From: an uncultured Ignavibacteriales bacterium
GTDB lineage: Bacteria; Zixibacteria; MSB-5A5; GN15; FEB-12
Reading direction: 5' to 3'
NCBI GenBank assembly: GCA_964612145.1
Contig: CAZTBP010000013.1
Location: 1-64,000 of the forward strand
DNA: 64,000 bases
Shown: one piece after another, positions 1,315 to 42,351 of the stretch
Layout: every line of letters starts with the position of its first letter
Position numbering within the stretch: position 1 is the first letter of the stretch
Made by a program: the position numbers and the translations under genes
The notes under the pieces: model-generated
Told to the model about the DNA's origin: nothing
The model's input: only the letters and a program-made list of their open reading frames with translations
The model's database searches: none

Positions 1315-1983
1315 ATGGTAAAGGATAGAACAGTCGATCTGAAGTCCAATAACAAAGAAAAGAAGCACGAGGACAATCCCCATCCCGAAGGCCATGTTGA
1401 TAACATGCCGTCAAACCAAAATAAGGATAATTCCGTTGAGCGTAACAGAAGTAGCGAAGTTCTCGATCTGCTGGAGAAGCTGTACTGCCTTACCGAGAAG
1501 AACCAAACTTCAGTAGCCGCAGTCGCGGCAAATATGGAGCAATCCAGTAAGCAAGGAGACTTGATAAAGAGCTTGTTTGCTAAGGTGGATTCATTAGAAC
1601 GAGATACGGTATTTCGCGACAGAATCCGGCCCGTACTCCTCGACATGATCCGACTTTATGATCGCGTTGAATTGATGTGCGGTGAGATAGCAGAACCTGT
1701 CGCTGATAACGAGGCGCTTAGTGTTCGGTTAAACAGCATTCGGAGCGAGTTATCTCAGATCCTGAAACGAAATGGTGTTGAGGAGCTCGATGTGTTGCAC
1801 AGGCCATTTGATGAATCTTTCAGCGAGGCGGCAGACAAAAAGCGGGTAAACGACCCGGCGTTACATATGAAGACAGTTGAGGTCTTAAGAAAGGCCTTTT
1901 TGTGCCATGGGCGATTGCTTAGACCAGCATTGGTACTGGTCGGCGAGTGCAAACCTGAGAACGGAGATGTGTCGGATGAGTAA
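1315..1983 (+). CDS. grpE: GrpE-like nucleotide exchange factor
   Basis: C-terminal GrpE signatures VNDPALHMKTVEV (DPxxHxA) and RKAFLCHGRLLRPALVLVGE (GYxLxxRxLRPAxVxV). GGAG lies 7 nt upstream of the ATG at 1315. The stop overlaps the Hsp70 start by 8 nt. Confidence 0.6.
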   Translation: MVKDRTVDLKSNNKEKKHEDNPHPEGHVDNMPSNQNKDNSVERNRSSEVLDLLEKLYCLTEKNQTSVAAVAANMEQSSKQGDLIKSLFAKVDSLERDTVFRDRIRPVLLDMIRLYDRVELMCGEIAEPVADNEALSVRLNSIRSELSQILKRNGVEELDVLHRPFDESFSEAADKKRVNDPALHMKTVEVLRKAFLCHGRLLRPALVLVGECKPENGDVSDE

Positions 1984-3502
1984 AGTGCTTGGAATCGATT
2001 TGGGCACAACAAACTGTTGTATGGCGGTTCTGAATGAATATGGTCGGCCCAAAGTGATTACTAACTCTGAAGGGCACAACACTACTCCTTCCGTAGTGCT
2101 ATTTCGGGGCGAGGAGCGAGTCGTTGGTGTACGGGCGAAGCGAGCACGGGTTGCTCAGGCAAATAATGTCGCCATGCTTATGAAGAGGTATATACTCAAA
2201 GAACATTGGCGGTTCATCGGACCTGATGGCAAAGAATACTCTCCTGAAGAGCTGTCCGCTATAGTGCTTCGGAAACTGAAACAGGATGCAGAAAAGGCCC
2301 TCGGTGAAGAAATCAAACAAGCTGTTATAACAGTACCTGCATATTTTGGCGATTTGGAGAGGAATCGAACAAAAGCCGCGGGCGAAATGGCCGGGTTAGA
2401 CGTCCTGCGGATAATAAACGAGCCAACCGCAGCAGCTTTGGCCTATGGGCTCGATCAAGCCGAAAGCGAACAGACAATCCTCGTCTACGATCTGGGTGGG
2501 GGGACATTCGATGTGACGATTATGAAAGTAACCGGTTCAAAAATCCAGGTTATCACATCCGGTGGGAACAAGTCTCTCGGGGGAGCCGATTTCGATCAAG
2601 CGATTGTTGAGCATATGAAGGAGCAGTTCATTGCCACACACCAAGTTGACCCAACCAAGGGGGGCGAGAGTCTAGGCGTTTTACAGGACTTTCTGGATAA
2701 GGCTGAACAAGCCAAATTTGACTTGTCAGCAGATACAGAAACAGATATAAACCTTTCGGCAGAAGGGCAAGTACTTGATCTCAACCTGAATAGGCAAACG
2801 TTTGAGTCTCTTATCGCAAATTACATCGAAGAAACTAAGGGCTATATGGACCAGGCACTAAGCGATGCGAGTATGACCTGGGGCGATATAGACCGCGTAT
2901 TGCTTGTTGGGGGGTCTGTGAGAATACCGGCAGTCAAGAAGATGGTAGAAGAGGCTTCGGGCAAGACAGCTGAAGGTGGAGTCAATCCGGACGAAATCGT
3001 TGCCGAAGGCGCGGCAATTGTCGGGGCTTCTGAGGTAGGTCAAACCATCCGTAAAGAAACTGGAGAAGAGGTGTCGGGGCTCGAAGTAAGAGATGTTACC
3101 GCACACTCGTTCGGCGTCAAAGCAAAAGAAGGGGGAGCACATGTGAACTCGATAATCCTTCCGAAGGACACTTCGATTCCGGCCTCCCGTACGCGAAACT
3201 TCACGACCCCTGAAGATAACCAGACATCAGTGGAGATTATAGTTCTCGAGGGTGAAGAGTTAGACCCCGATCTTTGCGAACAGCTGGGTGCGCTCCATAT
3301 CGAGGGACTTCCGCCTAAACCGAAAGGTGTACCCAAAATCGAAGTAACCATGACTTATACGAGAGAGGCCATCATTCAGGTTACTGCCCGGGAGCTAACC
3401 ACCGGCCTTGAAATCAAGGGTGAAGTAAAGGGGTCAGGACGGACTACAGCTGCAGACATTGCAGCCGTTCAGGGGGATATTGAAAAACTAAAAATCAAAT
3501 AG
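1976..3502 (+). CDS. Hsp70-family ATPase of about 508 aa that lacks the helical lid (HscC-like non-canonical Hsp70)
   Basis: Hsp70 motifs are present: VLGIDLGTTNCCMAV, ITVPAYFGDLERNRTKAAGEMAGLDVLRIINEPTAAALAYG and VYDLGGGTFDVTIM. The protein ends right after the SBD-beta region (about 508 aa versus about 640 for DnaK). The ATG at 1976 gives the canonical N-terminus MSKVLGIDLG. Confidence 0.85.
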   Translation: MSKVLGIDLGTTNCCMAVLNEYGRPKVITNSEGHNTTPSVVLFRGEERVVGVRAKRARVAQANNVAMLMKRYILKEHWRFIGPDGKEYSPEELSAIVLRKLKQDAEKALGEEIKQAVITVPAYFGDLERNRTKAAGEMAGLDVLRIINEPTAAALAYGLDQAESEQTILVYDLGGGTFDVTIMKVTGSKIQVITSGGNKSLGGADFDQAIVEHMKEQFIATHQVDPTKGGESLGVLQDFLDKAEQAKFDLSADTETDINLSAEGQVLDLNLNRQTFESLIANYIEETKGYMDQALSDASMTWGDIDRVLLVGGSVRIPAVKKMVEEASGKTAEGGVNPDEIVAEGAAIVGASEVGQTIRKETGEEVSGLEVRDVTAHSFGVKAKEGGAHVNSIILPKDTSIPASRTRNFTTPEDNQTSVEIIVLEGEELDPDLCEQLGALHIEGLPPKPKGVPKIEVTMTYTREAIIQVTARELTTGLEIKGEVKGSGRTTAADIAAVQGDIEKLKIK

Positions 3503-3518: not shown

Positions 3519-4352
3519 ATGTCGCGTGAGTATCTTCGACGAATCGGTCTTCCGTCATCGGCCACAGAAAAGCAGATCGAAAATCGCATGACCGAACTGA
3601 TTCGCAAGCTGCAGAATAAACTCAATAGCCCTGTTATCTCGCATCGCGATCAAATTGAGAAGGAACTTGAAGAGTTGTTTCAGATTCGTGCCGCTCTGCG
3701 GGTTGGAAATAAAGAGGCTGGGTTGCAAGACGACGAAGAGAATTCTTCGTCCGATGAGAGCCTCGAGATATCTTATGGGGAGTTAACCGAAGGACTGGGA
3801 ATTGAGGAAAACTGTGAACCCTCAACTTCCAATGTTGGCTTGCTAATCGATACCTCTGGTAGCATGTCTGGCACAAAGCTGAAGGATGCCAAAATTGCGC
3901 TGGAGTCCTTTCTGAGTAACCTTGATGGCAACCAGATTATGGTTGGGCTCGCGGAATTTGGCAATACCATAAGTGTGGTTAGTGATCAAACATCCGAATT
4001 GGACCGGGTCAGGTCATCTATTGGCGAGCTTGTTTGTGGTGGAAGCACACCGCTATATGAGACTCTTGAGCTGGCTAGTAGCAAATGGTCATCCTTCTTG
4101 GGACAGAGTTTTTTATTCATTGTCGCGACAGACGGCCATCCTAACGGTTCCACTGAGCGCATTCTATCTCTCGCCGAGGAGATTAAAGAGCGGGGGGTTA
4201 GATTTATTACAATTGGCATCGGTTCCGATGTTAACGTCAAATTTCTGCAGGATTTGGCATCTACTCCAGAGGATTATTACTTTGCAGAGGCTAGTATACA
4301 ATTAGAGAGCATTTATCGACAAATTTCAGATGGGCTTGCGAGTTTAGACTAG
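3519..4352 (+). CDS. von Willebrand factor A (vWA/MIDAS) domain protein with an N-terminal degenerate J-like helical domain
   Basis: MIDAS motif LLIDTSGSMSG plus downstream GGSTPLYETL and ATDGHPNG. Residues 1-60 (EYLRRIGLPSSATEKQIENRMTELIRKL...SHRDQIEKELEELFQIRAAL) resemble J-domain helices II and III, with HRD in place of HPD. Confidence 0.65.
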   Translation: MSREYLRRIGLPSSATEKQIENRMTELIRKLQNKLNSPVISHRDQIEKELEELFQIRAALRVGNKEAGLQDDEENSSSDESLEISYGELTEGLGIEENCEPSTSNVGLLIDTSGSMSGTKLKDAKIALESFLSNLDGNQIMVGLAEFGNTISVVSDQTSELDRVRSSIGELVCGGSTPLYETLELASSKWSSFLGQSFLFIVATDGHPNGSTERILSLAEEIKERGVRFITIGIGSDVNVKFLQDLASTPEDYYFAEASIQLESIYRQISDGLASLD

Positions 4353-4370: not shown

Positions 4371-6521
4371 ATGGGTAAGTTCATAGACTATTTTGCGGAG
4401 CTCAACGAGGCGAAACTGCAGGGTGTTGGCAAGCTGATTCTGCGGTTAGATGCTAGACAGACAAACTTGGAGATTATAGAGAAGATCAAAATTCGACTAG
4501 GCAATAATCCCAGTAAACAGGCTGAGTATCTGCAGGGGCTTGCTCGAGAAGCTCGACCCATTTTCGAGGATAATAAGAAATACGCGGATTACTTTAAAGC
4601 GTATATTAGTTATGTGATTGAGACAAAGGTTAAAGAGGCACTTCTTGACGGGGAAGTTTCGCAAAAGGAGCTATCGATAATAGTTCAAGCAGCACGTGAG
4701 TTAGGTGAGTCAGATGAAAAGACTATAAAAACAATAAAAGATCTTGTCGAGGATGCGCATGGCATCATTGAAGATCCTCGGTCGGATGGGGGAAGAGAAT
4801 TTAGCACGCCATCCCGCAGTAAGTTCACGGACTATTTTGCTGAGCTAAATGGTGCCAAACTCGCTGGTATTAGCAAGCTGGTTCCAAAGTTGGATGCTAG
4901 ACTTACCAATTTGGAAATTATTGGGAAAATGAAGATTCGATTAGGTAATAATCCTAGTAAGCAAGCTGAGTACTTGCAGGGACTTGCGCGGGAGGCGCGT
5001 CTTATTTTCGAGGACGATAAGAAATACAGGGAGTACTTGATAGCTTACGTTGGATATGTGATTGAGACGAAGGTTCAATGGGCACTCGGCCTGGACGGAA
5101 AAATATCGCAAGAGGAACTGTCTATAATAATCCAGTCGGCACGAGACTTAGGCGTGTCCCATGAAGTTGCTTTAAAGACAATAAAAGTCCTTGTTAAGAA
5201 CGCAGGCGGTACCATTGAAAGCCCTGGGTCTGGGGGGAGAAGAGAATTTGGGAAGCCACCTCCAAAAACTCAGCCACAACCGAAAGCGCCACCGCAGCCT
5301 GGCGCCGGACAGAGGCAGCAATCGGGTGCCGGAGCGGGGTCGTCAACATCCGGTTCAGGAACGACCTTCGGTTTAGACAACTTGACCCCGGTCGAGAAGG
5401 CTAACATAGCCACCAGTATCGCTGGAACGCTTGGATTGCTCTACGTTCTTCTCAAAGTCACCTGGGTACCGCTGAATTGGTGGGGATTGCTGATTCCTGC
5501 GATCGCAGCGATTATCTCTATCAAAAATGCGAATTTGCCCGTGAAGAGGCACGCATGGAGCCTGGTAGCAATTCTATTCTTGTATTTCTGGAATGCTGCT
5601 CTACTATTAGTGCTCCTACCGACTTTTCTCCTTTGGCACTGGAGTCCAGTAATCTTCGCAAAGCTGAAACTGAAGCCGTCATATGTCTGGATTTTGCCCA
5701 TTGTCCTCTGCCTCGGCGTATATTCAACGTCATACGCAGTTAAACGTGTTCCCAGGAGAACCAGTAACATGGGATTTGTACAGCCAGCACCTAAACCTCC
5801 AGTCCAGCAGCAAGCTCCGCGGCAAGAGCGAAATACGCAAAATCGACCGGCGCAGACCAAGCCTGTGCCACAGTCATCCTCGGGCCAGTCACAACCGACT
5901 CAGACACGAAGGTCACAAACCACTTCGCCTCCCACGAACACGGTGAAGACAACAAAACCACCGACAACATCGGTGCCGCCAAAGACACAGGAGCCTAAGC
6001 CCCCAGCGACACGTACTCAGCCGAAGTCGGTTACATATGTATTCAATGCAGACAGCAGTGCATTCGAGCTATACTCGTCCGAGGGGATTCAAGGGACCGG
6101 AATAGTCGTCAACCAGGGTGACAGTATCATTATTGATGTTAGCGATAAGACGACTGTGGTTTGGAGTGAGGGCGAAGACCCGGTTGGGCCGGCCGGTTCG
6201 TCAGCCATCGCGTTGAGTCGAAATAATGGGACGGAGTTTTTAATTCCACAATCGCCATGCGGTGCCGTCATCGGTAGAATCGGTCAGGCAGGCAAGTGGT
6301 TCTGCATTGGACAGAAGTATCGTGCGCAAGCTGATAGAGAGGGCGAGCTTTTCTTGACAATCAATGACCGGCCGAACGGATTTGCTGACAATTTTGGCTT
6401 TTTCGGACTAAGTATAATCGTCAAGAGAAGGGTACCAAAGACTGCCAGCCTATTCGCTCCGGATTCAAAGCACGTCTTCGCGCAGGACGTTGAAATTTAC
6501 GAGATTAGGGGTGCAATTTGA
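4371..6521 (+). CDS. Multidomain membrane protein with 2x TerB-like about 148-aa tandem repeats (cytoplasmic), a PGS-rich linker, 4-5 TM helices, a P/T/Q-rich linker and a C-terminal PA-IL/LecA-like lectin domain
   Basis: Two about 75%-identical repeats, KFIDYFAELN...ELSIIVQAARELGES and KFTDYFAELN...ELSIIIQSARDLGVS. A hydrophobic block lies at aa 340-455. The C-terminus (GDSIIIDVSDKTTVVWSEG...GAVIGRIGQAG...NDRPNGFADNFGFFGLSI) parallels LecA (DVITIVAAGWASYGP...GALVMKIGNSG...NDVPGTYGNNSGSFSV). Confidence 0.6.
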   Translation: MGKFIDYFAELNEAKLQGVGKLILRLDARQTNLEIIEKIKIRLGNNPSKQAEYLQGLAREARPIFEDNKKYADYFKAYISYVIETKVKEALLDGEVSQKELSIIVQAARELGESDEKTIKTIKDLVEDAHGIIEDPRSDGGREFSTPSRSKFTDYFAELNGAKLAGISKLVPKLDARLTNLEIIGKMKIRLGNNPSKQAEYLQGLAREARLIFEDDKKYREYLIAYVGYVIETKVQWALGLDGKISQEELSIIIQSARDLGVSHEVALKTIKVLVKNAGGTIESPGSGGRREFGKPPPKTQPQPKAPPQPGAGQRQQSGAGAGSSTSGSGTTFGLDNLTPVEKANIATSIAGTLGLLYVLLKVTWVPLNWWGLLIPAIAAIISIKNANLPVKRHAWSLVAILFLYFWNAALLLVLLPTFLLWHWSPVIFAKLKLKPSYVWILPIVLCLGVYSTSYAVKRVPRRTSNMGFVQPAPKPPVQQQAPRQERNTQNRPAQTKPVPQSSSGQSQPTQTRRSQTTSPPTNTVKTTKPPTTSVPPKTQEPKPPATRTQPKSVTYVFNADSSAFELYSSEGIQGTGIVVNQGDSIIIDVSDKTTVVWSEGEDPVGPAGSSAIALSRNNGTEFLIPQSPCGAVIGRIGQAGKWFCIGQKYRAQADREGELFLTINDRPNGFADNFGFFGLSIIVKRRVPKTASLFAPDSKHVFAQDVEIYEIRGAI
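4377..5264. repeat. In-frame tandem duplication (2 x 444 bp) that encodes the two TerB-like repeats
   Basis: DNA and protein near-identity between 4377-4820 and 4821-5264. Example pair: gcaataatcccagtaaacaggctgagtatctgcagggg versus gtaataatcctagtaagcaagctgagtacttgcaggga. Confidence 0.8.
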
Positions 6522-6740: not shown

Positions 6741-7937
6741 ATGAAGTACTTACGGGTCTTCGCCCTGTTCTGTCTGGTTCTTTCATACGCTGGATGCGGT
6801 GGTCCTAAAACGCTACGAGCACCAGTTCCTTATGAAAGTCAGAACGAATATACCGTCGATGATGTCATCACGGAAATGGTAACTGAAGCCTGCAGTCGCT
6901 TGCAGACAGAAGGGGCTAAAGGGAGGGTTGCTCTCCTGGACTGCTACAGTGCGTCGGGCAAATCTACCTCCTTGGAGGGCCGCATAAGTAATGTTCTTCT
7001 CGCAAAGTTTAGTGAATGTGCTACATCCGGAAGAACTTCTTTTAGCATTGTTCAGCCTCAAGTTATCGCATCCAATATGGCAGCACTTGATCTGTCGGCT
7101 CGAGCCGCGAATATCAAAAATAACGCTGACACGTGGAAGAGACTGGGGGTCCAAATGGTGGCCTCATGTCGTTGGCTACCGAATCCAAACGAGTCAATCA
7201 AGGTAATCTTTGAGTTTTTCGATGTAAGTTCGGGCGGACGACAAATTTTCACTATTGAGAGAACTCTGGAAAAAGATGACGATCTTCGAAAACTGCTCGG
7301 TGAAAAATTGCCCGGAATGCTCATAGTCGAATCGGAAACCGCCGGGTCGAGGGTGTACGTCGACGGCGAATTTAAGGGCGAGATAACTTCTGATCCGATA
7401 TCATTTGAAGTTCCCTACGGTACACACAGTCTCCGAATTGACCGGTCAGGGCACAAGTCCTTCTCTAAGAGTGTGACGATCGAAGAACGAGAGTCAGAAT
7501 ACCTGAAGGTGAAATTCACGCAGTCGCATCTGGCTCCAATGAATTCCGCCCTCTTGAGTGCGTTACTACCCGGCCTAGCATTGGCGGTCTATGGTCCGGA
7601 AGCTAAGGACAACGTTGCTTCGGCTTCTCACGGCATCGCAGCGGCGTTATTCTACACGGCTGCAATTTGCTGGGTGGTAGATGAAAGCAAAGACGATCCA
7701 TTCTTGACGCGCGACAATGACGACCGGTATAAAACTATCAAGAATATTGAGTTGTACACAGCGCTTGGCGCATATGTGGGCAATATAATTACTGGTTGGT
7801 TCGTTGGTAACGAGTACCGGAAGGAAACAAAAAGGGGGGTAGAGATCATGGCTCAAGAAATTCCGGACAGGCTGATCTTCTATGCAGATCGTAGCCACAA
7901 CGGCGACATGATTTTGAAGGTTGGCCTTAAATTCTAA
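6741..7937 (+). CDS. Lipoprotein with a PEGA domain and a C-terminal hydrophobic region
   Basis: Start at 6741 gives MKYLRVFALFCLVLSYAGCGG, a lipobox. The PEGA motif is LIVESETAGSRVYVDGEFKGEITSDPISFEVPYGTHSLRIDRSGHKSF. TM-like segments follow near aa 300-400 (LLSALLPGLALAVYG, AAALFYTAAICWVV). The 150-nt upstream extension in the ORF track has no support. Confidence 0.55.
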   Translation: MKYLRVFALFCLVLSYAGCGGPKTLRAPVPYESQNEYTVDDVITEMVTEACSRLQTEGAKGRVALLDCYSASGKSTSLEGRISNVLLAKFSECATSGRTSFSIVQPQVIASNMAALDLSARAANIKNNADTWKRLGVQMVASCRWLPNPNESIKVIFEFFDVSSGGRQIFTIERTLEKDDDLRKLLGEKLPGMLIVESETAGSRVYVDGEFKGEITSDPISFEVPYGTHSLRIDRSGHKSFSKSVTIEERESEYLKVKFTQSHLAPMNSALLSALLPGLALAVYGPEAKDNVASASHGIAAALFYTAAICWVVDESKDDPFLTRDNDDRYKTIKNIELYTALGAYVGNIITGWFVGNEYRKETKRGVEIMAQEIPDRLIFYADRSHNGDMILKVGLKF

Positions 7938-7954: not shown

Positions 7955-8323
7955 ATGAAACACATAGCTCTATTATTGGTATTGGCTCTGATGGCGAGTT
8001 TTCAAGGCTGTGCGAGTATCTTGTCTTCAGACACAGAGGTAGTTGGAGTGGCTAGATTGGAAGGTGCTCCTAGCAATGGTCATGGCGGGATACTTATCAG
8101 TAATGGACACGTAAGCGCCATTTCAGCATCAGACGGTACATTCACCCTATCGGGTCAGGTTCTCAAAGACACTGATTTCGATGTTATATTCTCAAAAGAC
8201 GGATACATATCTCAGGTGGTCAATATCTTCATCGATTATGCACCGGGAGATGATTCGGATGAGGACGATGGTCCCCTCGTAGTAGATGTTGGTACTGTTA
8301 CCTTGCCCTTGCAAAGTAAGTGA
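7955..8323 (+). CDS. Small lipoprotein with a carboxypeptidase-regulatory-like beta-sandwich domain
   Basis: Lipobox MASFQGCAS. The motif GILISNGHVSAISASDGTFTLSGQV resembles CarbopepD_reg. Confidence 0.45.
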   Translation: MKHIALLLVLALMASFQGCASILSSDTEVVGVARLEGAPSNGHGGILISNGHVSAISASDGTFTLSGQVLKDTDFDVIFSKDGYISQVVNIFIDYAPGDDSDEDDGPLVVDVGTVTLPLQSK

Positions 8324-8385: not shown

Positions 8386-9234
8386 ATGGAGCCAGTAATT
8401 AAGGACCAAGTTCGGTCATGGTCGCAGTTGAGTGCTATTCTGCAGGACGCTCGAGGGGTAGTAGATGCGGCCGGTATGAAGATGTTTTCAAATGGATACT
8501 TTCGTCCCGGGGATTTCAGTGAATTCGTTGTTGGAGCGGACCTTTTTTGTCTCGTTGGTTGGCCGATCAGTCTCCACTTGAATAGTGCGGTTGAGACTAC
8601 CGAGAAGTTTCTCAGGGCAAGTGAGAGTATCGAAAATACAGCTGGTCTAAGAAATGTATTAGCTAATTCGGTCATTCAGAGGTCCAAGGACGAGGATTCG
8701 GGTATTTTAGTGCATTGGAAGTTCATTGTGAATTCAGACAAGAAGTACTATAAGGACCGATATCGACGATACCCCGATGGCGGCTTCCTCCATACAGTCG
8801 ACACGCTTCTGTGGGAAACACACTGCCTATCAATGTGGGCATTGTCATTTTGGTATGATATCGCAGGAGCAGTACCTTCTGGCGACGCAGATCGTATAGC
8901 TGAAATCACCGACCGTCTTCTGGCCCTGATCAATGATCTTTTTCCAGACAAAGTCATCCAGGAAGACGATTCTCTCTTTGGCCTTGGTTTTGACGCTATA
9001 GACTCAGAGTTTATAATGTCAGCACTGGAAGAACACTACACTGGGAAGTCAGCACGGAAGCAGACTACTGAAGCCATGGGAAACTCTCCAACGAGTTCTT
9101 TGACCGAGGCTGAGTGGCTACAGGCAAGCGTAGGAACGTGGCGTGTTGATGGAAGATCAATTGAAGGTACTAAGTTGATGGTAATGCCGCTCTCACAGCT
9201 CGTAAAGTGGGTAGATATTCGAATTGACGGCTGA
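8386..9234 (+). CDS. Hypothetical protein (282 aa)
   Basis: Long ORF with no recognisable motif. It lies in the low-GC island. Confidence 0.4.
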   Translation: MEPVIKDQVRSWSQLSAILQDARGVVDAAGMKMFSNGYFRPGDFSEFVVGADLFCLVGWPISLHLNSAVETTEKFLRASESIENTAGLRNVLANSVIQRSKDEDSGILVHWKFIVNSDKKYYKDRYRRYPDGGFLHTVDTLLWETHCLSMWALSFWYDIAGAVPSGDADRIAEITDRLLALINDLFPDKVIQEDDSLFGLGFDAIDSEFIMSALEEHYTGKSARKQTTEAMGNSPTSSLTEAEWLQASVGTWRVDGRSIEGTKLMVMPLSQLVKWVDIRIDG

Positions 9235-10708: not shown

Positions 10709-11821
10709 CTAAACTTCTCCACCCCCTTCTTCAAACGGCAGTTTCTCCACCGCATTCGCCAGGTGATCCGGGCCGAGGTGGGCGTAGATCATGGTCGTTT
10801 CTATATCCGAGTGGCCCATCAGCTTCTGAACCGTTGGGAGATCGACGCCCTGCATTACCAAGTGGCTCGCGAACGTGTGGCGAAGCGTATGGACTTTCGT
10901 GAACTCCCCGATCTCGGCCTTCTTGGCGATTTTAATGAGCTCCATCCGGAGATAGTTGTGCATGTTCTTCCCTGACGACTTCACCGGAAAGACATAATCG
11001 TTCTTCGAACGGCCGTCTCGCTTCCGATGCAAGTCGGTAAGGAGCTTCAGGAGGCCATCGCTGATCGGGATGTCCCTCTCCCCCGTCTTCGGCCGCCAGT
11101 CCTTCTTCCGACGGATACTGATCTGTCGCCGCTCAAGATCGATATCGGCCCAGGTGAGATTCTCAAGCTCCGCTTTCCGCATGCCTGTATGAAGAAATGT
11201 ATAGTAGATCGGGTAGAGATTCGGCGGGCAGACGTCAAGGAACCTCCTGCATTCATTGACGGACAGAAATCGAGGCGTCTGATTTTCATCTACCTTCAGC
11301 TTCGCCACACCCTTGGTCGGATTCTCTCGAATGTATCCCCACTTGATCGCCAGGTTGAAAATTAGCCGAAGCGTATCGAGCTCAAAATTCACTGTACGCG
11401 ACTTGGCCACCTTGGGCGACCTACCCCCATTGGCATCTTCCTCGACGGCAGGACTACCGCCGTTGGCGTTCTTCCGAAACACCTTGTACTTGTCGATGAC
11501 CTCGGTCGAGACATCGGAAACATATCTGACCTTCGGCGAGGACTGGAGGAACTCCCGGAAATGATCAATCACCGCCCGATAACGGTCTGTCGTCGTCTTA
11601 CGGTGAGTAGCCTGGCTGTACTCAAGGTAGGAATCAAGAAAGTCGGTCAGCGGCATCTTGGCCTGGCCAAAACCATGCTCTTCTTTGGCAATCTTGACCT
11701 CGGCTTCCTTGAGAGCCAGCTCGGCCACTTTCTTCACCGGCCCGATTCGTCGGCGCACCCTGCGCCCATCGACCCGAATATCAAGATACCAGACTTTGCC
11801 GCGCTTATAGATTTCGCCCAT
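10709..11821 (-). CDS. int: Tyrosine site-specific recombinase / phage-type integrase
   Basis: C-terminal catalytic box [39 protein letters not shown] (R...HxxR...Y). An N-terminal SAM-like/AP2 region is present. The gene sits immediately 3' of tRNA-Leu. Confidence 0.9.
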
Positions 11822-11931
11822 ATCGACGTCTCCCCTTGGTCACAAGTTGGTCACAGCCCTGTTTTCCAAGAAGGAACGAAAGACTTAAGTCGTTGTCAAG
11901 TGGGAAGTTGAATCGGAGGGGAAAATCTAAA

Positions 11932-12015
11932 TGCCGAAGGGGGGATTCGAACCCCCACATCCTTACGGATACTGCGCCCTGAACGCAGCGCGTCTACCTG
12001 TTTCACCACTTCGGC
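11932..12015 (-). tRNA. tRNA-Leu (anticodon CAG), class II with a long variable arm
   Basis: Reverse complement reads GCCGAAGTGGTGAAACAGGTAGACGCGCTGCGTTCAGGGCGCAGTATCCGTAAGGATGTGGGGGTTCGAATCCCCCCTTCGGCA. The acceptor stem is GCCGAAG/CTTCGGC. The anticodon stem-loop is CTGCG-TTCAGGG-CGCAG. The T-arm is GGGGGTTCGAATCCCCC. Confidence 0.85.
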
Positions 12016-12164
12016 ATTCATAACGACTCCGGGGAAACACCGCAATTGCTGCCAATCACGCCCTTCCCTCGGGCCGCCGAGGCCGGTGAACCGCCTCGGT
12101 AGTCGCCAATATATACGCTCTGGCTCGTAACGCAACAGCAATTTTCAAGGCCGGAACAACAGAT

Positions 12165-14477
12165 CTACCGGCCACCTTGATTCAACGATAAACGGACTCC
12201 ATCGCCAAACCGCTTCCCCTCATAAAACAAGCCAAAGCGTAATGTCGTATACTCCGGCCGGTTCGGTATTACCGTATGTACCATGCGAACATCTTCCTTC
12301 TGCCAGTTATTGAAACGCGGCAGTGGCAAGAAGTCATGGTTGTCGAAACTATCCCCATCACCAAAAGCATGCAGGAAGATGCGGTAACTACTGGTTGGCT
12401 CCACTCGCGCATGCAATGTCAGAAATAAATGGAGACTGTCTTTTCTGTCAACCACTAGTGTATTCATCAGATCAAATCGCCCATCCAGATCATAGGCGAT
12501 AGAGTCCATCGGGAAATCACGCCATTTTGTCCAGTCGACACCCAAATACCGATCGGATTCCTCCTGAGCAGACACGTTGAGCCATTGACGTATCACCCGC
12601 CACCGAGCAAGGAAAAGCAGACTGTCACGGCTGGTGCCTTTGAACCTCCATTGCCCTTGCCCGGCAGTCGTCGGTGAGTCCACAACAGAAAAGAATCCAT
12701 CCACCTCCTGTCGTCGGAAAAACCTCTCGTCTTCGAACACCTCCGGGCTGAACTGAATTTCTTGCAGCGTGTACCGATTGGGATAGTTATCCAGGACCAT
12801 CGTCAAATACAGCACACTCTCGCGACTGCGCAGGTGGACAAAATCAACACCATCGAAAGTGTTGCTTGTCAGTGTAAGATTCAAGAGATACGGATCGTCT
12901 ATATGCTGCACCAGCGAAAGCAACCGATAGCGGCCGGTATACCGAGCCGCCGGATGACTGTAGTGATGATTAGGCGCCACAAAAAGATAAACCGGATAAA
13001 ATGACGGCAACTCTTCCCAGGCACTCAGAAATACCGTACCTCGACGCGGCACCATCCGTTCTTCACCAAAACCCCAGTTTGCCGGTTGACTTTTCCTCGC
13101 TTCCGCAATCCCTCCCGACTTCCCAACGACATTCGCCTGGTAGACAAGTGACAACAGCAACACAATACCCAAGGCTGCGAACACTCGCTGCACCCGTGGT
13201 CGCCCGTGCGCGGCCCGACTGAATGCAACCAGTGCCAATGCGATCACGGGACCGGTCACAAATGCAAGAAACTCTGCGGCCTTGATGAGATTGATCGGAC
13301 GGTCCAGGGCACCGAGAAAAGTCCCGAGCAGATAGTAACAGACTATCCCGCTAACCAGTGTTACCAGAGCCCGGTTTACGGAGGAATGGACTCTCCGCAA
13401 AGCATAAAGCAGCCCGCCCAGGAACAGAAGACCGGAAACGGTGAGAGTCATAAAACTGAAATTGACCCCCACGGAATCAATATGGTGCCACCCCGTCCCT
13501 TTGTCGACCCCGTATTTCGCGATGTCCGCCATCAATGGACCCCAGTAAAGACTGCTAACAACCGCCGCCGCCAACATGACACCTATTGCCGGCCATAGTC
13601 GAAATGAGTCGCGGACATATGGACGAATGAGACGGCTAAAAAAGACAACGCGAAGCAGTAGCAAGAATCCGCCAATGAAAAAACCGTAGAAATAGGTCAT
13701 AAAAATCAGGCCACCGATGAGGCCACCCCGCACAAAAAACGACCGGGTCGGCGCTGGATGTTTCACCTGCTCTATATAATAGAGCCACCAGGGAACGAAA
13801 AAAATATTCCCGAGCATCGCGTGCGGGACAGACAGTGCAAAGGCTCTCCCCCCTAGCAGGTAAACGAAACTCACGACCGTAATCACGGCCGCCTGACGAT
13901 CACTCACTATGCGACGCCACAAAAACCAGACAAAGAACGGGCTGACAAAGTGAATCGCCTGCGCCGCAAACTTCATCATAGCAAATGACGCAGCGTCATC
14001 AAGCCGCGCGAACAATGAAAGGACATAATACAACACCGGCGGGTAAAACGGTGAGAGGTCCTTGTAGTAAAAATCCTTCGGAACCCACCAAGTGGCAAAC
14101 TTCTCAATCATCGCGATCCGGAACTTCTGGTCCCCCCAGTATCCATTCAAACTAAACGCCGTTCCGTCAAGCAGCAGGCAGATGACGACATACCCGTACA
14201 CCGACACTACCGCGACAAGAACCGCCGACTTGATCCGCCAGGAAACTCCCGCAAGCCAAACCACCACCGTAGTCAAGACAAACAACAACCCCCACATGTC
14301 CAGCCAGATCAGGTCCCGAACCAGTAGCGTTTCTGAAAACGGCTTTGGGGTTGAACTGTACTGCCACAGATAAACAGCCATCCCCCCGAACAAGACCAAA
14401 GCAACAGCGGCAATCCAGTTCTTCGGAGTAAACCAGCGCGTGCTGTGCATCCTGTCCATCAGACCGCCTCCGTACAA
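12165..14477 (-). CDS. Large polytopic membrane protein (770 aa) with about 12 N-terminal TM helices and a C-terminal soluble domain. Possibly a GT-C-type glycosyltransferase.
   Basis: Strong hydrophobic periodicity over aa 20-480. No ATP or other motifs. Architecture only. Confidence 0.5.
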   Translation of the reverse strand: MYGGGLMDRMHSTRWFTPKNWIAAVALVLFGGMAVYLWQYSSTPKPFSETLLVRDLIWLDMWGLLFVLTTVVVWLAGVSWRIKSAVLVAVVSVYGYVVICLLLDGTAFSLNGYWGDQKFRIAMIEKFATWWVPKDFYYKDLSPFYPPVLYYVLSLFARLDDAASFAMMKFAAQAIHFVSPFFVWFLWRRIVSDRQAAVITVVSFVYLLGGRAFALSVPHAMLGNIFFVPWWLYYIEQVKHPAPTRSFFVRGGLIGGLIFMTYFYGFFIGGFLLLLRVVFFSRLIRPYVRDSFRLWPAIGVMLAAAVVSSLYWGPLMADIAKYGVDKGTGWHHIDSVGVNFSFMTLTVSGLLFLGGLLYALRRVHSSVNRALVTLVSGIVCYYLLGTFLGALDRPINLIKAAEFLAFVTGPVIALALVAFSRAAHGRPRVQRVFAALGIVLLLSLVYQANVVGKSGGIAEARKSQPANWGFGEERMVPRRGTVFLSAWEELPSFYPVYLFVAPNHHYSHPAARYTGRYRLLSLVQHIDDPYLLNLTLTSNTFDGVDFVHLRSRESVLYLTMVLDNYPNRYTLQEIQFSPEVFEDERFFRRQEVDGFFSVVDSPTTAGQGQWRFKGTSRDSLLFLARWRVIRQWLNVSAQEESDRYLGVDWTKWRDFPMDSIAYDLDGRFDLMNTLVVDRKDSLHLFLTLHARVEPTSSYRIFLHAFGDGDSFDNHDFLPLPRFNNWQKEDVRMVHTVIPNRPEYTTLRFGLFYEGKRFGDGVRLSLNQGGR

Positions 14478-28117: not shown

Positions 28118-29839
28118 TTACCCGAACACGCCCGAGATCCCGAGCGTGATAATAATCGTAATCAGTACTCCGGCCGCAACCGCAACATACAACCACACCG
28201 GCGCCTGCTTGGTCTTCCGGGGCGCCGCCGGCGTCGACTCGGTCCTGCGCCGGGCGTCCTCTTCACGCCGCCGCTCGAAATCCTCCCAGTCCAGCAGGAA
28301 CTCTTCGGCACTCGCGTATCGACGCGTTACCCGGATTGCCAGCAGACGCGACAGCATCTGGCAGACCTCTTCCGGAAGCTCCCGCCGAACATCTTCCAGC
28401 ACCAGGTTATCACCCGAATCATACTGCGGCAAACGGCCCGTCAACAGCTGGTGAAGAACCACGCCCATCCCGTAGATATCCCCCTGCCGCGACACCTTGC
28501 GTTCCGGCGGGCTGTACCAGTTCCGCTTCTTGGGACCATCGTAGTGAACCGGCAGCGCGAAGTCGGTCAGCTTCACCACATCCTCGGCGTCGAACAGGAT
28601 ATTCGACGGCCTCAAATTCCCGTGCACGATATTGTTCTTGTGCGCAAAATCGACCCCGCCGGCAACCTGCAAAATGATCTTAAACGCCTTCTCCCAGTCA
28701 TACCGCCGAACCATCCGATCCGCAAGTGACCCGCCCTGCGCGTACTCTGCGATTATCACCGTCGAACGACGATCCCCGCCGGCGCCATATATATCGACAA
28801 TATTCTGCTGCTTGAGCGTCGATAGAAGCTTCGCCTCTTTTCGTCCCGCCTCACCCTTGTGATGTTTCTTGATGACATATAACCGCTTGGTCACCCGGTT
28901 TTCAACCAGGATCGTCGACCCATACCGCGTTTCCCGAATAGTATCAAGATAACGGCACTTGCCCAAAAACGACTCCGTCCCCGATACCTTCAACGCCTCC
29001 GGATCCGTCCGGACACTCCCACCGCCTATCGCCTCCAGCAGCGCATCTTTCAACTCCACTGCTGTCTGGTAACGATCACTGCGATCCTGCGCCAGGCACT
29101 TCGACACGATATTGTCATACGCCGTACCCAGCTCGGAGTTAAGCTCCGACGGCAACTTGAATCGGCCCAGCGGCTTCTTTCCGCACAGGATTTCGTAGAG
29201 AATCACCCCCACCGCATAAATGTCGGTCGTCTGGTCGACATTGGCTGAACTAACTTTCTGCTCCGGCGACATATACGACAACGTCCCCATCACCACGTCC
29301 GAGGCCGTCATCTCCGCTTCGGGCGTCCCCACGATCTGCGCGATACCAAAGTCAGCCACCAGCGCATTGGCCTGACGATCAATCAGGATGTTCGCCGGCT
29401 TAATGTCCCGGTGAATCACGCCATTCTTGTGCGCGTAGTCCAGCGCCTTGCATACCTGCACGACCATCTCGATCTTGGTGTGCAGCTGAATCTTGTCCGA
29501 ATCTATGACCTCCCGAAGCGAGGTGCCGTCGATAAAATCCATAACAAAGTAGTACCGACCGCCGGCCTGCCCTTTATCAATAATATGAACAATATTCGGG
29601 TGATTTAGCCGCGCCACGACCATCGACTCCCGCTCGAACCGGCGCACGATATCAGGATCATTGGAAAGCTTGGGCGAAAGAATCTTGATCGCAACATCAC
29701 GGTCCAGCGACTCCTGCCGCCCTTTGTAAATGACCGCAATTCCTCCCTGCCCGATTTTTCCCGTCAGGAGATACGGTCCGATCTTGACGACCTTTGGCGT
29801 CGCTCCGGCTTTCTTCTGATCTTTAACTGCTTCAGTCAT
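28118..29839 (-). CDS. Ser/Thr protein kinase (Hanks-type) followed by a second degenerate kinase-like domain and a C-terminal TM anchor
   Basis: GKIGQGGIAVIYKG...AIKIL, HRDIKPANILID and DFGIA in domain 1. Domain 2 has NIVHGNLRPSNILF...DFALP, with a degenerate Gly-loop. C-terminal TM is VWLYVAVAAGVLITIIITL. Confidence 0.8.
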   Translation of the reverse strand: MTEAVKDQKKAGATPKVVKIGPYLLTGKIGQGGIAVIYKGRQESLDRDVAIKILSPKLSNDPDIVRRFERESMVVARLNHPNIVHIIDKGQAGGRYYFVMDFIDGTSLREVIDSDKIQLHTKIEMVVQVCKALDYAHKNGVIHRDIKPANILIDRQANALVADFGIAQIVGTPEAEMTASDVVMGTLSYMSPEQKVSSANVDQTTDIYAVGVILYEILCGKKPLGRFKLPSELNSELGTAYDNIVSKCLAQDRSDRYQTAVELKDALLEAIGGGSVRTDPEALKVSGTESFLGKCRYLDTIRETRYGSTILVENRVTKRLYVIKKHHKGEAGRKEAKLLSTLKQQNIVDIYGAGGDRRSTVIIAEYAQGGSLADRMVRRYDWEKAFKIILQVAGGVDFAHKNNIVHGNLRPSNILFDAEDVVKLTDFALPVHYDGPKKRNWYSPPERKVSRQGDIYGMGVVLHQLLTGRLPQYDSGDNLVLEDVRRELPEEVCQMLSRLLAIRVTRRYASAEEFLLDWEDFERRREEDARRRTESTPAAPRKTKQAPVWLYVAVAAGVLITIIITLGISGVFG

Positions 29840-38997: not shown

Positions 38998-41900
38998 TTA
39001 CCACGGGCAATCAATCGGAGCCGGCCCCTGTCTAAAGAGGTAATCAACCAGGTATGTCAGGTCAGCCACATCGACCGGAGGTCCACTGGCATTAACATCA
39101 CCTTCCTCAGCACATGGCAGATCGGGGCCCTGGCGGAAAAGATAATCGACCATGTACGTCAGGTCATCCACCTGAACCTTGTCTTCCACATCACCGTTGA
39201 CATTGCCGCGAATTCCTTCACAGCAGCCGTCGCAGGCATCGCCCAAACCATCCCCATCAGTGTCCTCCTGACCCGGGTTGTACACCTCCGGACAGTTGTC
39301 GCATACATCGCCGATACCGTCCGGACCACCATTTTCCGGCAGCTCACTCTCTACCTGATCGGCGTTGGCATCCAACGGACAGTTGTCACACAGATCCCCG
39401 ACACCGTCGGCATCAACGTCTAGCTGATCCGGGTTATTGACCATCGGACAATTATCACAGGCATCGCCGAATTCATCGTTATCGGAATTGGTTTGGTCTG
39501 TATTCGCTGTATTCAGACAGTTGTCGCAAACGTCACCAACGTTGTCACCGTCAGCATCGGCTTGCGTGTCGTTGAATGTAGTCGGGCAGTTGTCTACGTC
39601 GCCACAAACCCCGTCACCATCGATGTCATTATCGGGATCATTGGGACACTGATCGCAGACATCACCGATACCATCACCATCAGCGTCAGCCTGATCGGTG
39701 TTCGCGTCATCCGGACAGTTGTCACAAACATCTCCGATACCGTCAGCATCGACATCCGCCTGGTTGCGGTTCCACTCTTCCGGACAGTTATCGCAGACAT
39801 CACCTACCGTATCGAAATCCTGGTCAGCCTGATCCGCATTGGCATTATCCGGACAATTGTCACAGGCATCACCGGTCCCGTCCCCGTCTATGTCGGACTG
39901 ATCCGTGTTCGCCGTATCCGGACAGTTATCGCAGACATCGCCGATATTATCCGCGTCAACGTCGCTCTGATCGGAGTTCGGATCCGACGCACAGTTGTCG
40001 CATTGGTCGCCCCAGCCGTCGTCATCGAAATCGGACTGGAACTGGTTGGCCACCGTCGGACAATTGTCGCACGCATCGCCGACACCGTCACCATCGACAT
40101 CCGCCTGATCCGTATTCGGCGTGCTCGGACAATTGTCGCAGATATCACCTTTCCCATCATCGTCCGCATCCAGTTGATCCGTGTTGGCTTCGTCCGGACA
40201 GTTATCACAGACATCACCGATTCCGTCGCCGTCCACATCCGACTGGTCGGCATTCGACGTAGTGGGGCAGTTGTCGACATCACCACAGACGCCGTCACCA
40301 TCTATGTCATTATCCGGATCATCCGGGCACTGGTCACATAGATCACCGATTCCGTCAGCGTCAGCGTCTTCCTGAAGCGGATTGGACACGGTCGGACAGT
40401 TGTCACACAAATCGCCAATCCCGTCACTGTCACCATCCGCCTGATCGGCATTAGCCACTGTCGGACAATTGTCGCAAACATCCCCAACCCCGTCGCCGTC
40501 AGCGTCAAGCTGATCACTGTTTGGCTCATTCGGGCAGTTGTCGCACACATCACCAACACTATCGCCGTCCCCATCCAGCTGGTCCGGATTGGCATCGGCC
40601 GGGCAGTTGTCACAGATGTCGCCCACACCGTCAGCGTCACCATCCGCCTGATCCGTATTCGCATCGGTCGGACAGTTATCACAGACATCCCCGATACCGT
40701 CGCTGTCTACATCGGACTGATCGACATTGGCGTCCGTCGGACAGTTATCGCAGTCGTCACCAATACCGTCAGCGTCACCGTCAAGCTGATCCGGATTCGG
40801 ATCACTTGGACAGTTATCACAAAGATCACCGACCGAGTCAGCATCGACATCAGACTGATCGCTGTTGGCATCGTCAGGACAGTTGTCACAGACATCACCA
40901 ACGCCGTCACCATCGACATCCGATTGGTCAGCGTTCGGCGTATCCGGACAGTTATCGACATCACCACAGACTCCGTCGCCATCTATATCATTCTCGGGAT
41001 CATTCGGACACTGGTCACACAGATCACCGATGCCGTCTCCGTCGCTGTCAAGCTGATCCGGATTAGCGACATCGGGACAGTTGTCGCAGAGATCCCCTAT
41101 ACCATCGCCATCCGTATCCAACTGATTCGGATTGAACACTCCCGGACAGTTGTCACAGACATCACCGATACCGTCGTTGTCGGCATCGTTCTGATCCGGG
41201 TTCGGCGTGGTCGGACAGTTATCACACAGATCTCCCACACCGTCACCGTCAGCATCTACCTGATCCGGATTGGCAACCGTCGGGCAATTGTCACAGGCGT
41301 CACCGAGCCCGTCACCATCGACATCCGCCTGATCCGAATTCGGCGTCGTCAGACAGTTATCGCACACATCCCCGACGCCGTCGTTATCAGTATCGAGCTG
41401 ATCGGTATTCGGTGTTGTCGGACAGTTGTCACAGGCGTCGCCAATCCCGTCGCCGTCGGAATCCAGCTGGTCCGGGTTAAACACTGTCGGACAGTTGTCA
41501 CATAGATCTCCAATCCCGTCACCATCAGCATCGGCCTGGTCGGAATTCGGAATTGTCGGACAGTTGTCGCAGAGGTCACCCACTCCGTCACCGTCTGAAT
41601 CAAGCTGGTCCGGATTGGCAACCGTCGGACAATTATCGCAGGCATCACCAAATCCGTCGCCATCGCTATCGGCCTGGTCCGGATTGAACACGGTCGGGCA
41701 GTTGTCAGGCGGGCAGTTCTGGCCCGGTACCGTCGGATCCCCAAACCCGTCGCCGTCCGGGTCGAGACAAAACTGACACTGGTCACCGATGTATTCGGTG
41801 CCGTCCCAGATCGGCTGAAACACGATCTGGCCCGTTGGCGAGTTCGAGTTCATAACGTATTCGGTGCCGTTGGAATATGTCGCCGTGTCGATGATGATCA

Positions 41901-42351
41901 GATCATCAGAATCCCAGCTTGAAAGTGTGAAGTAGTAAGTTGCCCAGTGTTGTCGAGCAGTTAGATTGGAGTCAACCCCGTCGCCCATCAATTGTGAACC
42001 ACCAACCAAAAATCGCTGGTTCGCATTTGTCGTCGCCAGGTCATTGTTCTCGTAGAAAAACGGCCCGATCTCAAACCCGTCGATCAACAGTTGCGTACCA
42101 ACCGCACTGTCCATCTGAAGGTTCGGGTTGTCCCACGTAAACCCGGCCGATCCGCCGCTGATATTCTCGTCGTGGTACATCCACAATTCCACCTCGACCT
42201 TCGCCTGGCCGGTCGAGGCATCGGGACAAAGCGTTGTGACGAGAATCAACGTGTCGGTATTCCCCGGATCGTCGGGATCTTGGGCGTTGACGGTTGCAGC
42301 CAGCAATAACGCACCCATCAGCAGTGCTGCCGGCAAGAGAGTCTTCCTCAT
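38998..42351 (-). CDS. Giant secreted protein (1117 aa) made of about 45 thrombospondin type-3-like calcium-binding repeats, with a C-terminal tandem dockerin-like module
   Basis: Signal peptide [23 protein letters not shown]. Iterated D-x-D-x-D-G-x-G-D-x-C-D-N-C-P-x-x-x-N-x-D-Q units. C-terminus [19 protein letters not shown]...[24 protein letters not shown]. Confidence 0.85.
39320..41740. repeat. Coding tandem-repeat array (about 45-bp TSP3 units with an about 650-bp higher-order repeat containing CDQCPNDP(E/D)[16 protein letters not shown], present 3 times)
   Basis: The 15-aa periodicity is obvious in the translation. The many spurious opposite-strand ORFs across this span are the artefact signature of a high-GC periodic repeat. 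Confidence 0.8.

What the first reader, a model, noticed from the sequence alone, without database searches (positions are those of the whole stretch)
4371..6521. Recent in-frame tandem duplication of a TerB-like module, and an unexpected PA-IL/LecA lectin domain on a membrane protein
The two 148-aa N-terminal units are about 75% identical at protein level and clearly homologous at DNA level, so the duplication is recent. The C-terminal 150 aa reproduce the LecA Ca/galactose-binding signature spacing (GDSIIIDV..., GAVIGRIGQAG, NDRPNGFADNFGFFGLSI). The PA-IL fold is rare outside a few Proteobacteria. This architecture is cytoplasmic TerB x2, then TM, then a P/T/Q-rich stalk, then a lectin. It suggests a transmembrane sensor that reads an extracellular glycan.
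Basis: partly seen in the sequence, partly recalled or inferred. Interest (0 to 1): 0.6.

Follow-up and report, generated by a model that had tools for sequence, protein, structure and literature searches.

The report
Membrane lectin-like adaptor of an Hsp70 operon
The gene encodes a rare membrane protein with a duplicated J-domain-like (not TerB) head and a calcium-type LecA-like lectin domain, sitting in a conserved operon with its own Hsp70 chaperone, so it is most likely a membrane adaptor of that chaperone rather than a stand-alone glycan sensor.

Summary
The ORF (4371-6521, +, 716 aa) is real. The tandem duplication is real: 70% amino-acid and 74% nucleotide identity. It is not recent: dS is about 1.1 and dN/dS 0.16. 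All four homologues found have a single unit. The C-terminal domain is a PA-IL/LecA-type domain. It scores above the Pfam cut-off, and a family profile hits only LecA and PllA in the PDB (E 1e-12 to 2e-13). The calcium ligands are kept, but the galactose-contacting His50 and Gln53 are not. The domain is not rare: 470 cluster representatives match the protein, nearly all listed ones through this domain.

The gene lies in an operon conserved in five loci: GrpE, a lidless Hsp70, a J-domain(no HPD)-vWA protein, this protein, and a PEGA lipoprotein. The membrane part has four hydrophobic helices, not one, so an extracellular lectin is unproven.

Best reading: a DjlA-like membrane tether or adaptor for a dedicated Hsp70. 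It is a new variant of known kinds and of moderate interest.

The parts
4371..6521 (+). Whole ORF, 716 aa: 2 x (J-like + hairpin) units, linker, 4 hydrophobic helices, P/T/Q linker, PA-IL-like domain, short tail
   Evidence: ORF list. An identical protein, P0001, is called on one Logan/NCBI contig.
4371..4814 (+). N-terminal unit 1 (aa 1-148). Predicted helices at aa 7-12, 26-44, 49-66, 68-93 (J-domain-like) and 98-110, 115-128 (hairpin with weak TerB/DjlA-like motif LDGEVSQKEL...LG).
4815..5261 (+). N-terminal unit 2 (aa 149-297), tandem paralogue of unit 1
   Evidence: 70% aa and 74% nt identity, dS about 1.14, dN/dS 0.16. Homologues P0002-P0005 carry one unit only.
5262..5396 (+). Low-complexity P/Q/G/S linker (aa 298-342)
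   Evidence: Sequence read directly. Modelled as disordered.
5397..5741 (+). Membrane region (aa 343-457): four hydrophobic helices with family-conserved motifs KNAxxxKRHxW, LLPxFxxWHWSP and, just after helix 4, (K/Q)RVPRR
   Evidence: Hydropathy. Helices 340-363, 371-386, 394-432, 441-458 in the AF2 model. Conserved across the 5 family members.
5742..6065 (+). P/T/Q-rich linker (aa 458-565)
   Evidence: Composition P20, T17, Q14, S11 of 108 residues.
6066..6440 (+). PA-IL/LecA-like beta-sandwich domain (aa 566-690). Predicted Ca2+ ligands are D666, G670 (main chain), D673 and N674.
   Evidence: Pfam PF07828 at 26.1 bits, above the 22.5 cut-off. phmmer vs PDB: PllA 2.2e-5. Family profile A7 vs PDB: PllA 2e-13, LecA 1.1e-12, and all 5 hits are PA-IL lectins. 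N665, D666, N674 and G676 are invariant in 19 sequences.
1315..1983 (+). Operon partner: GrpE-like nucleotide-exchange factor
   Evidence: Pfam GrpE 53.4 bits. Gene call. Same position in L002 and L004.
1976..3502 (+). Operon partner: Hsp70 paralogue (508 aa) with no helical lid and an altered interdomain linker
   Evidence: Pfam HSP70 468 bits. 41% identity to DnaK, ATPase motifs kept, VLLL replaced by LEVR, ends before the lid.
3519..4352 (+). Operon partner: J-domain (no HPD) fused to a vWA domain with MIDAS motif DTSGS
   Evidence: Pfam VWA 68.6 bits. N-terminus vs canonical J-domains: hhalign 97.3%, E 1.9e-11. Homologues reach the Pfam DnaJ cut-off.
6741..7937 (+). Operon partner: PEGA-domain lipoprotein with C-terminal hydrophobic helices
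   Evidence: Pfam PEGA 42 bits. Lipobox read in the sequence. Conserved downstream gene in L002-L006.

Best explanation
The protein is the membrane-embedded adaptor (co-chaperone-like tether) of a self-contained, specialised Hsp70 machine encoded by the same operon.

Shown:
- It is co-oriented with a GrpE-like exchange factor, a lidless but ATPase-competent Hsp70 and a J-domain-vWA protein, separated by spacers of 16-18 nt. This gene order recurs in five independent metagenomic loci.
- Its C-terminus is a PA-IL/LecA-type domain with an intact Ca2+ site.
- Its N-terminus is a duplicated helical module whose confident model superposes best on J-domains.

Inferred:
- The J-like units dock the operon's Hsp70 at the membrane, as the J-domain of DjlA does for DnaK.
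- HPD is absent here and in the vWA partner, and the Hsp70 linker is altered. Coupling is therefore probably non-canonical: tethering or regulation rather than classical ATPase triggering.
- The lectin-like domain binds a diol-bearing ligand, most likely a sugar of unknown identity, through Ca2+.
- The four-helix membrane block links that binding to Hsp70 and vWA action.

Which side of the membrane the lectin-like domain faces is unresolved. I put the same side as the N-terminus, that is the cytoplasm, at about 55%.
For: Operon conservation: GrpE-Hsp70-J/vWA-target-PEGA in the window and in L002 and L004; L005 and L006 show it from Hsp70 onwards, and L003 holds only the target and the downstream genes.

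The neighbouring vWA protein carries a J-domain (hhalign 97.3%, E 1.9e-11; Pfam DnaJ above cut-off in homologues).

The Hsp70 keeps its ATPase motifs and R167/N170.

PA-IL membership and Ca ligands.

Precedent: DjlA is a membrane anchor, a TerB-like domain and a J-domain working with DnaK (PMC11709261). J-domains recruit Hsp70 to places and clients (PMC10410713).
Against: - No sequence method calls the N-module a J-domain. Pfam is silent, hhalign probability is only 5-35%, and Foldseek vs PDB has no significant hit.
- The HPD motif, needed for ATPase stimulation, is missing, and the helix II-III loop is only about 4 residues.
- No experiment links any member of this family to Hsp70.
- Only one unit was modelled, from a 6-sequence alignment.
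- Co-location does not prove physical interaction.
Confidence: 0.5

Rival explanations
1. One reading: two cytoplasmic TerB domains, a membrane anchor, an extracellular stalk and a LecA-type lectin, forming a transmembrane sensor that reads an extracellular glycan.
For: - A weak local match of aa 79-117 to the last hairpin of TerB/DjlA: hhalign score 26-28 against a maximum of 16.4 in 30 shuffles, and NCBIfam DjlA 16 bits.
- A PA-IL domain with a Ca site.
- Several relatives of this domain inspected carry signal-peptide-like N-termini, a T9SS tail, or sit after the single TM of a kinase.
- In homologue P0005 the flank after helix 4 is acidic and an extra ConA/LamG-like domain follows, which fits an outside location.
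- The downstream genes encode lipoproteins.
Against: - The fold match is to J-domains.
- Four hydrophobic helices, followed by the conserved K/QRVPRR, favour N-in/C-in.
- The galactose-contact residues His50 and Gln53 are not conserved.
Confidence: 0.15
2. The N-terminal helical units are generic oligomerisation or scaffold modules with no Hsp70 contact. The protein is simply a membrane-anchored Ca-dependent lectin or adhesin that works with the PEGA and lipoprotein genes downstream, and the chaperone genes upstream only help its biogenesis.
For: - Sequence similarity to J-domains is not significant.
- HPD is absent.
- Foldseek finds nothing significant.
- PA-IL lectins work as multimers (PMC11875179).
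Against: - The gene is adjacent to GrpE-Hsp70-J/vWA in every locus whose contig reaches that far.
- The units are under purifying selection (dN/dS 0.16).
- The neighbour carries a related HPD-less J-domain.
Confidence: 0.2
3. The whole cluster is a mobile conflict or defence module, chaperone-gated like the Hsp70/GrpE-containing systems of Kaur et al. 2020. In this reading the lectin-like membrane protein is the sensor or effector for an invader-derived glycan or for an envelope insult.
For: - A tyrosine integrase and tRNA-Leu lie next to the cluster.
- A transposase fragment lies next to it in L002.
- Type I R-M genes and a large PNP_UDP_1/HD protein lie next to it in L004.
- The family is very rare and patchy: 4 homologous clusters in 1.84 billion representatives.
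- Hsp70-GrpE modules occur in predicted conflict systems (PMC7159879).
Against: - No PADLOC hit for any gene except a 13.6-bit chance-level one.
- No PHROG or viral-contig relation.
- No att repeat in the window.
- No recognisable toxin or effector domain.
- The described systems are centred on GTPases that are absent here.
Confidence: 0.15

Closest known systems
DjlA (E. coli membrane-anchored class C J-protein; the 'TerB-DnaJ' architecture)
   Same: A membrane-anchored protein that combines a J-type helical domain with a TerB-type helical element and works with an Hsp70/GrpE pair. It is thought to bring the chaperone to the inner face of the membrane (PMC11709261, PMC10410713). The only family-model hit to the N-module is a 16-bit match to DjlA.
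   Different: DjlA has one N-terminal TM, a full TerB-like domain and a C-terminal J-domain with HPD. Here the order is reversed: J-like, then a single TerB-like hairpin. The module is duplicated and HPD is absent. There are four helices, and a PA-IL domain is appended. The partner is a dedicated lidless Hsp70 rather than housekeeping DnaK.
LecA/PA-IL of Pseudomonas aeruginosa and PllA of Photorhabdus (PF07828)
   Same: The C-terminal domain aligns over nearly the whole lectin (LecA residues 10-119). The Ca2+ ligands are conserved: D100=D666, N107=D673 (Asp, as in PllA and EclA) and N108=N674 (residue roles from PMC9300185 and PMC11875179).
   Different: LecA and PllA are 121-122-aa stand-alone soluble tetramers specific for galactose. 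Here the domain is the tail of a polytopic membrane protein. The His50-Gln53 loop that holds galactose O6 is replaced (Asn, Thr) and 5-8 residues longer, so specificity is unknown.
EclA of Enterobacter cloacae (LecA domain fused to a second domain)
   Same: A LecA-type domain inside a larger protein, with the calcium residues kept and the galactose residues lost. EclA's LecA domain does not bind galactose resin (PMC11875179).
   Different: EclA is a soluble two-domain lectin with no membrane region, no helical units and no chaperone context.
HscC with DjlB/DjlC (E. coli specialised Hsp70 with its own, partly membrane-anchored J-proteins)
   Same: A non-housekeeping Hsp70 paralogue encoded next to dedicated J-type partners, one of them membrane-bound. 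This comparison rests on my own knowledge and was not checked here. PMC10410713 only notes that DjlB and DjlC carry HPE instead of HPD.
   Different: The HscC system has no GrpE, no vWA and no lectin domain, and its J-proteins keep an HPD-like triad.
HPD-less J-like proteins (e.g. mitochondrial Pam16/Tim16; DNAJB13)
   Same: The J fold is retained without the HPD triad. Such proteins regulate or tether rather than stimulate Hsp70. The Pam16 case rests on my own knowledge; DNAJB13 lacking HPD is noted in PMC10410713.
   Different: These are eukaryotic, unrelated in sequence, not duplicated in tandem, and have no lectin or polytopic membrane part.

Membership tests
TerB (PF05099) | Significant match to the TerB family model over the domain (about 118 positions) | tested here: not met
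   No TerB hit at E <= 1 for the protein or homologues P0002-P0005. A genuine TerB scores 81.8 bits in the same scan. hhalign vs TerB+DjlA aligns only 39 columns (aa 79-117 to TerB 110-148), probability 18-25%.
TerB (PF05099) | TerB-type helical fold | tested here: not met
J-domain (PF00226) | Four-helix J fold (helix II-III hairpin flanked by helices I and IV) | tested here: met
J-domain (PF00226) | HPD tripeptide between helices II and III | tested here: not met
   That place reads GNNPSK in both units and is not conserved in the homologues (KQTSTE, NKRNIE, FNQPYG, ATTRNQ).
J-domain (PF00226) | Significant sequence match to the family model | tested here: not met
   No Pfam DnaJ hit. hhalign probability 5.5-34.6%, although the score exceeds all 30 shuffles.
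PA-IL / LecA (PF07828) | Match to the family model above the curated cut-off | tested here: met
   26.1 bits against a cut-off of 22.5, aa 571-686, profile positions 11-120 of 121. Homologues P0003 and P0005 also pass.
PA-IL / LecA (PF07828) | Homology to solved PA-IL lectins over the whole domain | tested here: met
   Profile A7 vs PDB: PllA 2e-13, LecA 1.1e-12 (LecA residues 10-119). All five hits at E <= 0.01 are PA-IL lectins.
PA-IL / LecA (PF07828) | Ca2+-coordinating residues (LecA D100, N107, N108; main chain of Y36 and T104) | tested here: met
   These correspond to D666, D673 and N674. N665, D666, N674 and G676 are invariant in 19 sequences. Residue roles come from PMC9300185 and PMC11875179.
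PA-IL / LecA (PF07828) | Galactose-contact residues His50 and Gln53 | tested here: not met
   They align to Asn and Thr (or Glu, depending on the aligner) in a loop that varies across the family.
PA-IL / LecA (PF07828) | Jelly-roll beta-sandwich structure and actual Ca2+/sugar binding | not testable with these tools
Binding needs experiment.
DjlA family (NF006948) | N-terminal single TM + TerB-like domain + C-terminal HPD J-domain, scoring above the equivalog cut-off | tested here: not met
   16.1 bits against a cut-off of 162. The architecture differs.

The most novel reading that the evidence does not exclude
The cluster is a previously undescribed, horizontally mobile, envelope-associated Hsp70 machine. 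A lidless Hsp70 with a rewired interdomain linker is driven by HPD-less J-like adaptors instead of by canonical J-domains. One adaptor is soluble and fused to vWA. The other is a polytopic membrane protein whose Ca-dependent lectin-like domain senses a glycan, either from the cell's own envelope or from an invader, and gates the chaperone. This would be a new mode of Hsp70 control and a new class of signalling or defence module.
Probability: 0.25. Interest if true: 0.75.

Novelty: new variant of a known kind. Interest (0 to 1): 0.5.

Why it matters
If the reading holds, three things follow.

1. It adds a bacterial example of J-fold domains that have lost HPD yet stay genetically locked to a dedicated Hsp70 and GrpE. 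The Hsp70 has itself lost its lid and changed its allosteric linker. That makes a natural test case for how Hsp70s can be recruited or regulated without the canonical J-domain trigger.
2. It places a LecA-type calcium lectin domain, known experimentally almost only from small soluble virulence lectins, inside a polytopic membrane protein of an uncultured lineage. The closest genome found is a Zixibacteria MAG.
3. It shows that this domain is far more widespread and modular than the characterised lectin literature suggests.

Tried and rejected
- The three word-indexed homology searches (full length, N-terminal 298 aa, C-terminal 160 aa) returned only the protein itself or nothing. The full HMMER scan of representatives was needed.
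- The full-length single-sequence AlphaFold model was too poor to use for folds (pLDDT 44). I used it only to count helices.
- Foldseek of the N-unit model against the PDB gave no significant hit. The afdb50 library was unavailable.
- PDB profile hits of the N-unit to designed repeat proteins and to 'ORF 131', and the Pfam PHA01746/Gla/DUF7117 hits, are all sub-threshold. The 'ORF 131' hit disappeared with the deeper alignment, so I rejected them as chance.
- Tandem Repeats Finder did not report the duplication because the copies are too diverged.
- PADLOC and PHROGs gave nothing relevant for the target.
- Scans of the metagenome and viral contig collections found no further relatives. The genome collection gave only the Zixibacteria MAG.
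- I found no direct repeat of the tRNA-Leu 3' end, so the island boundary is undefined.
- Counting positive charges across five homologues did not separate a 4-helix from a 5-helix topology. I counted by hand on alignment A3: about 37 inside and 17 outside for four helices, against about 35 and 19 for five.
- Cluster look-up gave no names or accessions.
Full report
**What is there.** The coordinates hold one ORF, 4371-6521 on the + strand, 716 aa. An identical protein is on record from a single Logan/NCBI contig. From N to C it has:
- two tandem helical units (aa 1-148 and 149-297);
- a P/Q/G/S linker;
- a block of four hydrophobic helices (aa 343-457);
- a 108-residue P/T/Q-rich linker;
- a beta-rich domain (aa about 566-690) and a 26-residue tail.

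**The duplication.** The repeat finder gives two in-register blocks with a 444-447 nt period, 77% and 71% identical. The units are 70% identical over 145 aligned residues with one 1-residue gap.
- A codon-wise Nei-Gojobori count gives pS 0.585, dS about 1.14, dN 0.18 and dN/dS 0.16.
- Synonymous sites are therefore close to saturation and both copies have been kept by purifying selection. The duplication is real and in frame but not recent.
- It is lineage-specific. The four true homologues found in 1.84 billion cluster representatives (P0002-P0005; E 4.5e-81 to 2.9e-29) each have one unit.

**The N-terminal unit is not a TerB domain.**
- Pfam gives no TerB hit at E <= 1 for the protein or for P0002-P0005. 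A genuine TerB scores 81.8 bits in the same kind of scan.
- Profiles of the units find no TerB in the PDB at E <= 10.
- An AlphaFold model of unit 1 from a six-sequence alignment is confident (pLDDT 87.5, pTM 0.77; helices 7-12, 26-44, 49-66, 68-93, 98-110, 115-128).
- At sequence level the evidence is weak but in register. hhalign of aa 1-95 against ten J-domains aligns helices III-IV (aa 46-78 to DnaJ 37-70), score 24.8, probability 35%, against a maximum of 13.4 in 30 column shuffles.
- The HPD triad is absent. The site reads GNNPSK and is not conserved in the homologues.
- The last hairpin of each unit (aa 79-117, '...LDGEVSQKELSIIVQAARELG...') aligns to the last hairpin of TerB/DjlA. The score is 26-28, probability 18-25%, against a shuffle maximum of 16.4. 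A 16-bit NCBIfam DjlA hit falls on the same stretch.

Each unit is thus best described as a J-like four-helix domain plus one TerB-type hairpin. These are the two ingredients of DjlA, degenerate and in the opposite order.

**The C-terminal domain is a PA-IL/LecA-type domain.**
- Pfam PF07828 scores 26.1 bits against a cut-off of 22.5.
- phmmer against the PDB finds PllA at 2.2e-5 and LecA at 0.017.
- A 19-sequence profile of this domain finds only PA-IL lectins: PllA 2e-13, LecA 1.1e-12 over LecA residues 10-119.
- The calcium ligands known from LecA and EclA (PMC9300185, PMC11875179) are kept. D100 corresponds to D666, N107 to D673 and N108 to N674. N665, D666, N674 and G676 are invariant in the alignment.
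- The loop that holds galactose O6 in LecA (His50-Gln53) aligns to Asn and Thr/Glu and varies across the family. Calcium-dependent ligand binding is therefore likely, but galactose specificity is not implied. EclA is a precedent for exactly this situation (PMC11875179).
- The claim that the fold is rare fails. 470 representatives match the protein at E <= 1e-3, nearly all listed ones through this domain. Examples are secreted tandem arrays, a T9SS-tailed protein and a Ser/Thr kinase fusion.

The gene is the fourth of a tight co-oriented cluster:
- a 90-aa two-helix protein;
- a GrpE-like factor (1315-1983);
- an Hsp70 (1976-3502);
- a J-domain-vWA protein (3519-4352);
- the target;
- a PEGA lipoprotein (6741-7937) and a small lipoprotein (7955-8323).

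The same order recurs in every homologous locus as far as its contig reaches. These are L002, L003, L004 (a 2.26-Mb Zixibacteria MAG) and L005/L006.
- The vWA protein's N-terminus is a J-domain (hhalign 97.3%, E 1.9e-11; Pfam DnaJ above cut-off in two homologues). It also lacks HPD.
- The Hsp70 is 41% identical to DnaK and keeps the ATPase motifs and R167/N170. It has no helical lid, and its VLLL linker is replaced by LEVR/IRIK/ISIT after a 9-residue insert.
- The cluster abuts a tyrosine integrase and tRNA-Leu here, a transposase fragment in L002 and type I R-M genes in L004.
- No defence or phage model matches, and no att repeat was found.

**Topology.** There are four conserved hydrophobic segments, not one.
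- With a 340-residue N-terminus that has no signal peptide, four spans put the C-terminal domain in the cytoplasm. The conserved KNAxxxKRH loop and the (K/Q)RVPRR stretch after helix 4 agree with this.
- Against it, the third segment is long (34-40 residues). P0005 has an acidic flank after helix 4 and an extra ConA/LamG-like domain. Several relatives of the PA-IL-like domain that I inspected look extracytoplasmic.
- Charge counts do not separate the two models.
- I put the cytoplasmic reading at about 55%. The 'extracellular glycan sensor' idea is neither shown nor excluded.

**Mechanism proposed.** I read the protein as a membrane adaptor that tethers or regulates the operon's own Hsp70 through its J-like units, following DjlA's logic (PMC11709261). 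Its Ca-dependent lectin-like domain would bind a still unknown diol-bearing ligand.
- Inferred: Hsp70 docking, non-canonical coupling without HPD, and ligand-dependent control.

Rival readings are a TerB sensor, a plain membrane lectin, and a mobile defence module. Each is scored separately, with the result that would refute it.

**Verdict.** The object is a rare, uncharacterised family that combines known parts in a new way, so I class it as a new variant of a known kind. Interest is moderate (0.5), mainly because of the HPD-less J-like adaptors locked to a lidless Hsp70.

Noticed in passing
window 3519-4352 (+): The vWA protein upstream carries an N-terminal J-domain that lacks HPD (SPV at that place). 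Its three homologues lack it too. The MIDAS motif DTSGS is intact.
   Followed up: yes
window 1976-3502 (+): The operon's Hsp70 has no helical lid. Its interdomain linker VLLL is replaced by LEVR after a 9-residue insert, while the ATPase residues and R167/N170 are kept. The same holds in three homologous loci.
   Followed up: partly
window 1315-1983 (+): The GrpE-like gene has a K/E-rich N-terminal extension of about 100 residues, and its end overlaps the Hsp70 start by 8 nt.
   Followed up: no
window 6741-7937 and 7955-8323 (+): Two lipoproteins lie downstream, with lipoboxes YAGC and FQGC. The first has a PEGA domain and C-terminal hydrophobic helices. Both are conserved in the homologous loci.
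   Followed up: partly
window 8386-9234 (+): A 282-aa ORF with no family match sits between the small lipoprotein and a conserved 114-aa gene. It is absent from loci L002, L003 and L005, so it may be an insertion.
   Followed up: no
window 10709-12016 (-): A tyrosine integrase lies directly next to tRNA-Leu(CAG), which suggests an integrated island that includes the Hsp70 cluster. No repeat of the tRNA end of 14 nt or more was found elsewhere in the window.
   Followed up: partly
locus L004 9112-9956: In the Zixibacteria MAG the J-vWA gene is broken into a 110-aa J-domain ORF and a 94-aa vWA fragment, with stop codons in the frame read. This is either a pseudogene or an assembly error.
   Followed up: no
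window 38998-42351 (-): A 1117-aa protein made largely of thrombospondin type 3 (calcium-binding) repeats, with 11 stretches and 373 bits. A Ser/Thr kinase (28118-29839) and an AftA-like arabinofuranosyltransferase (12165-14477) also lie in the window.
   Followed up: no
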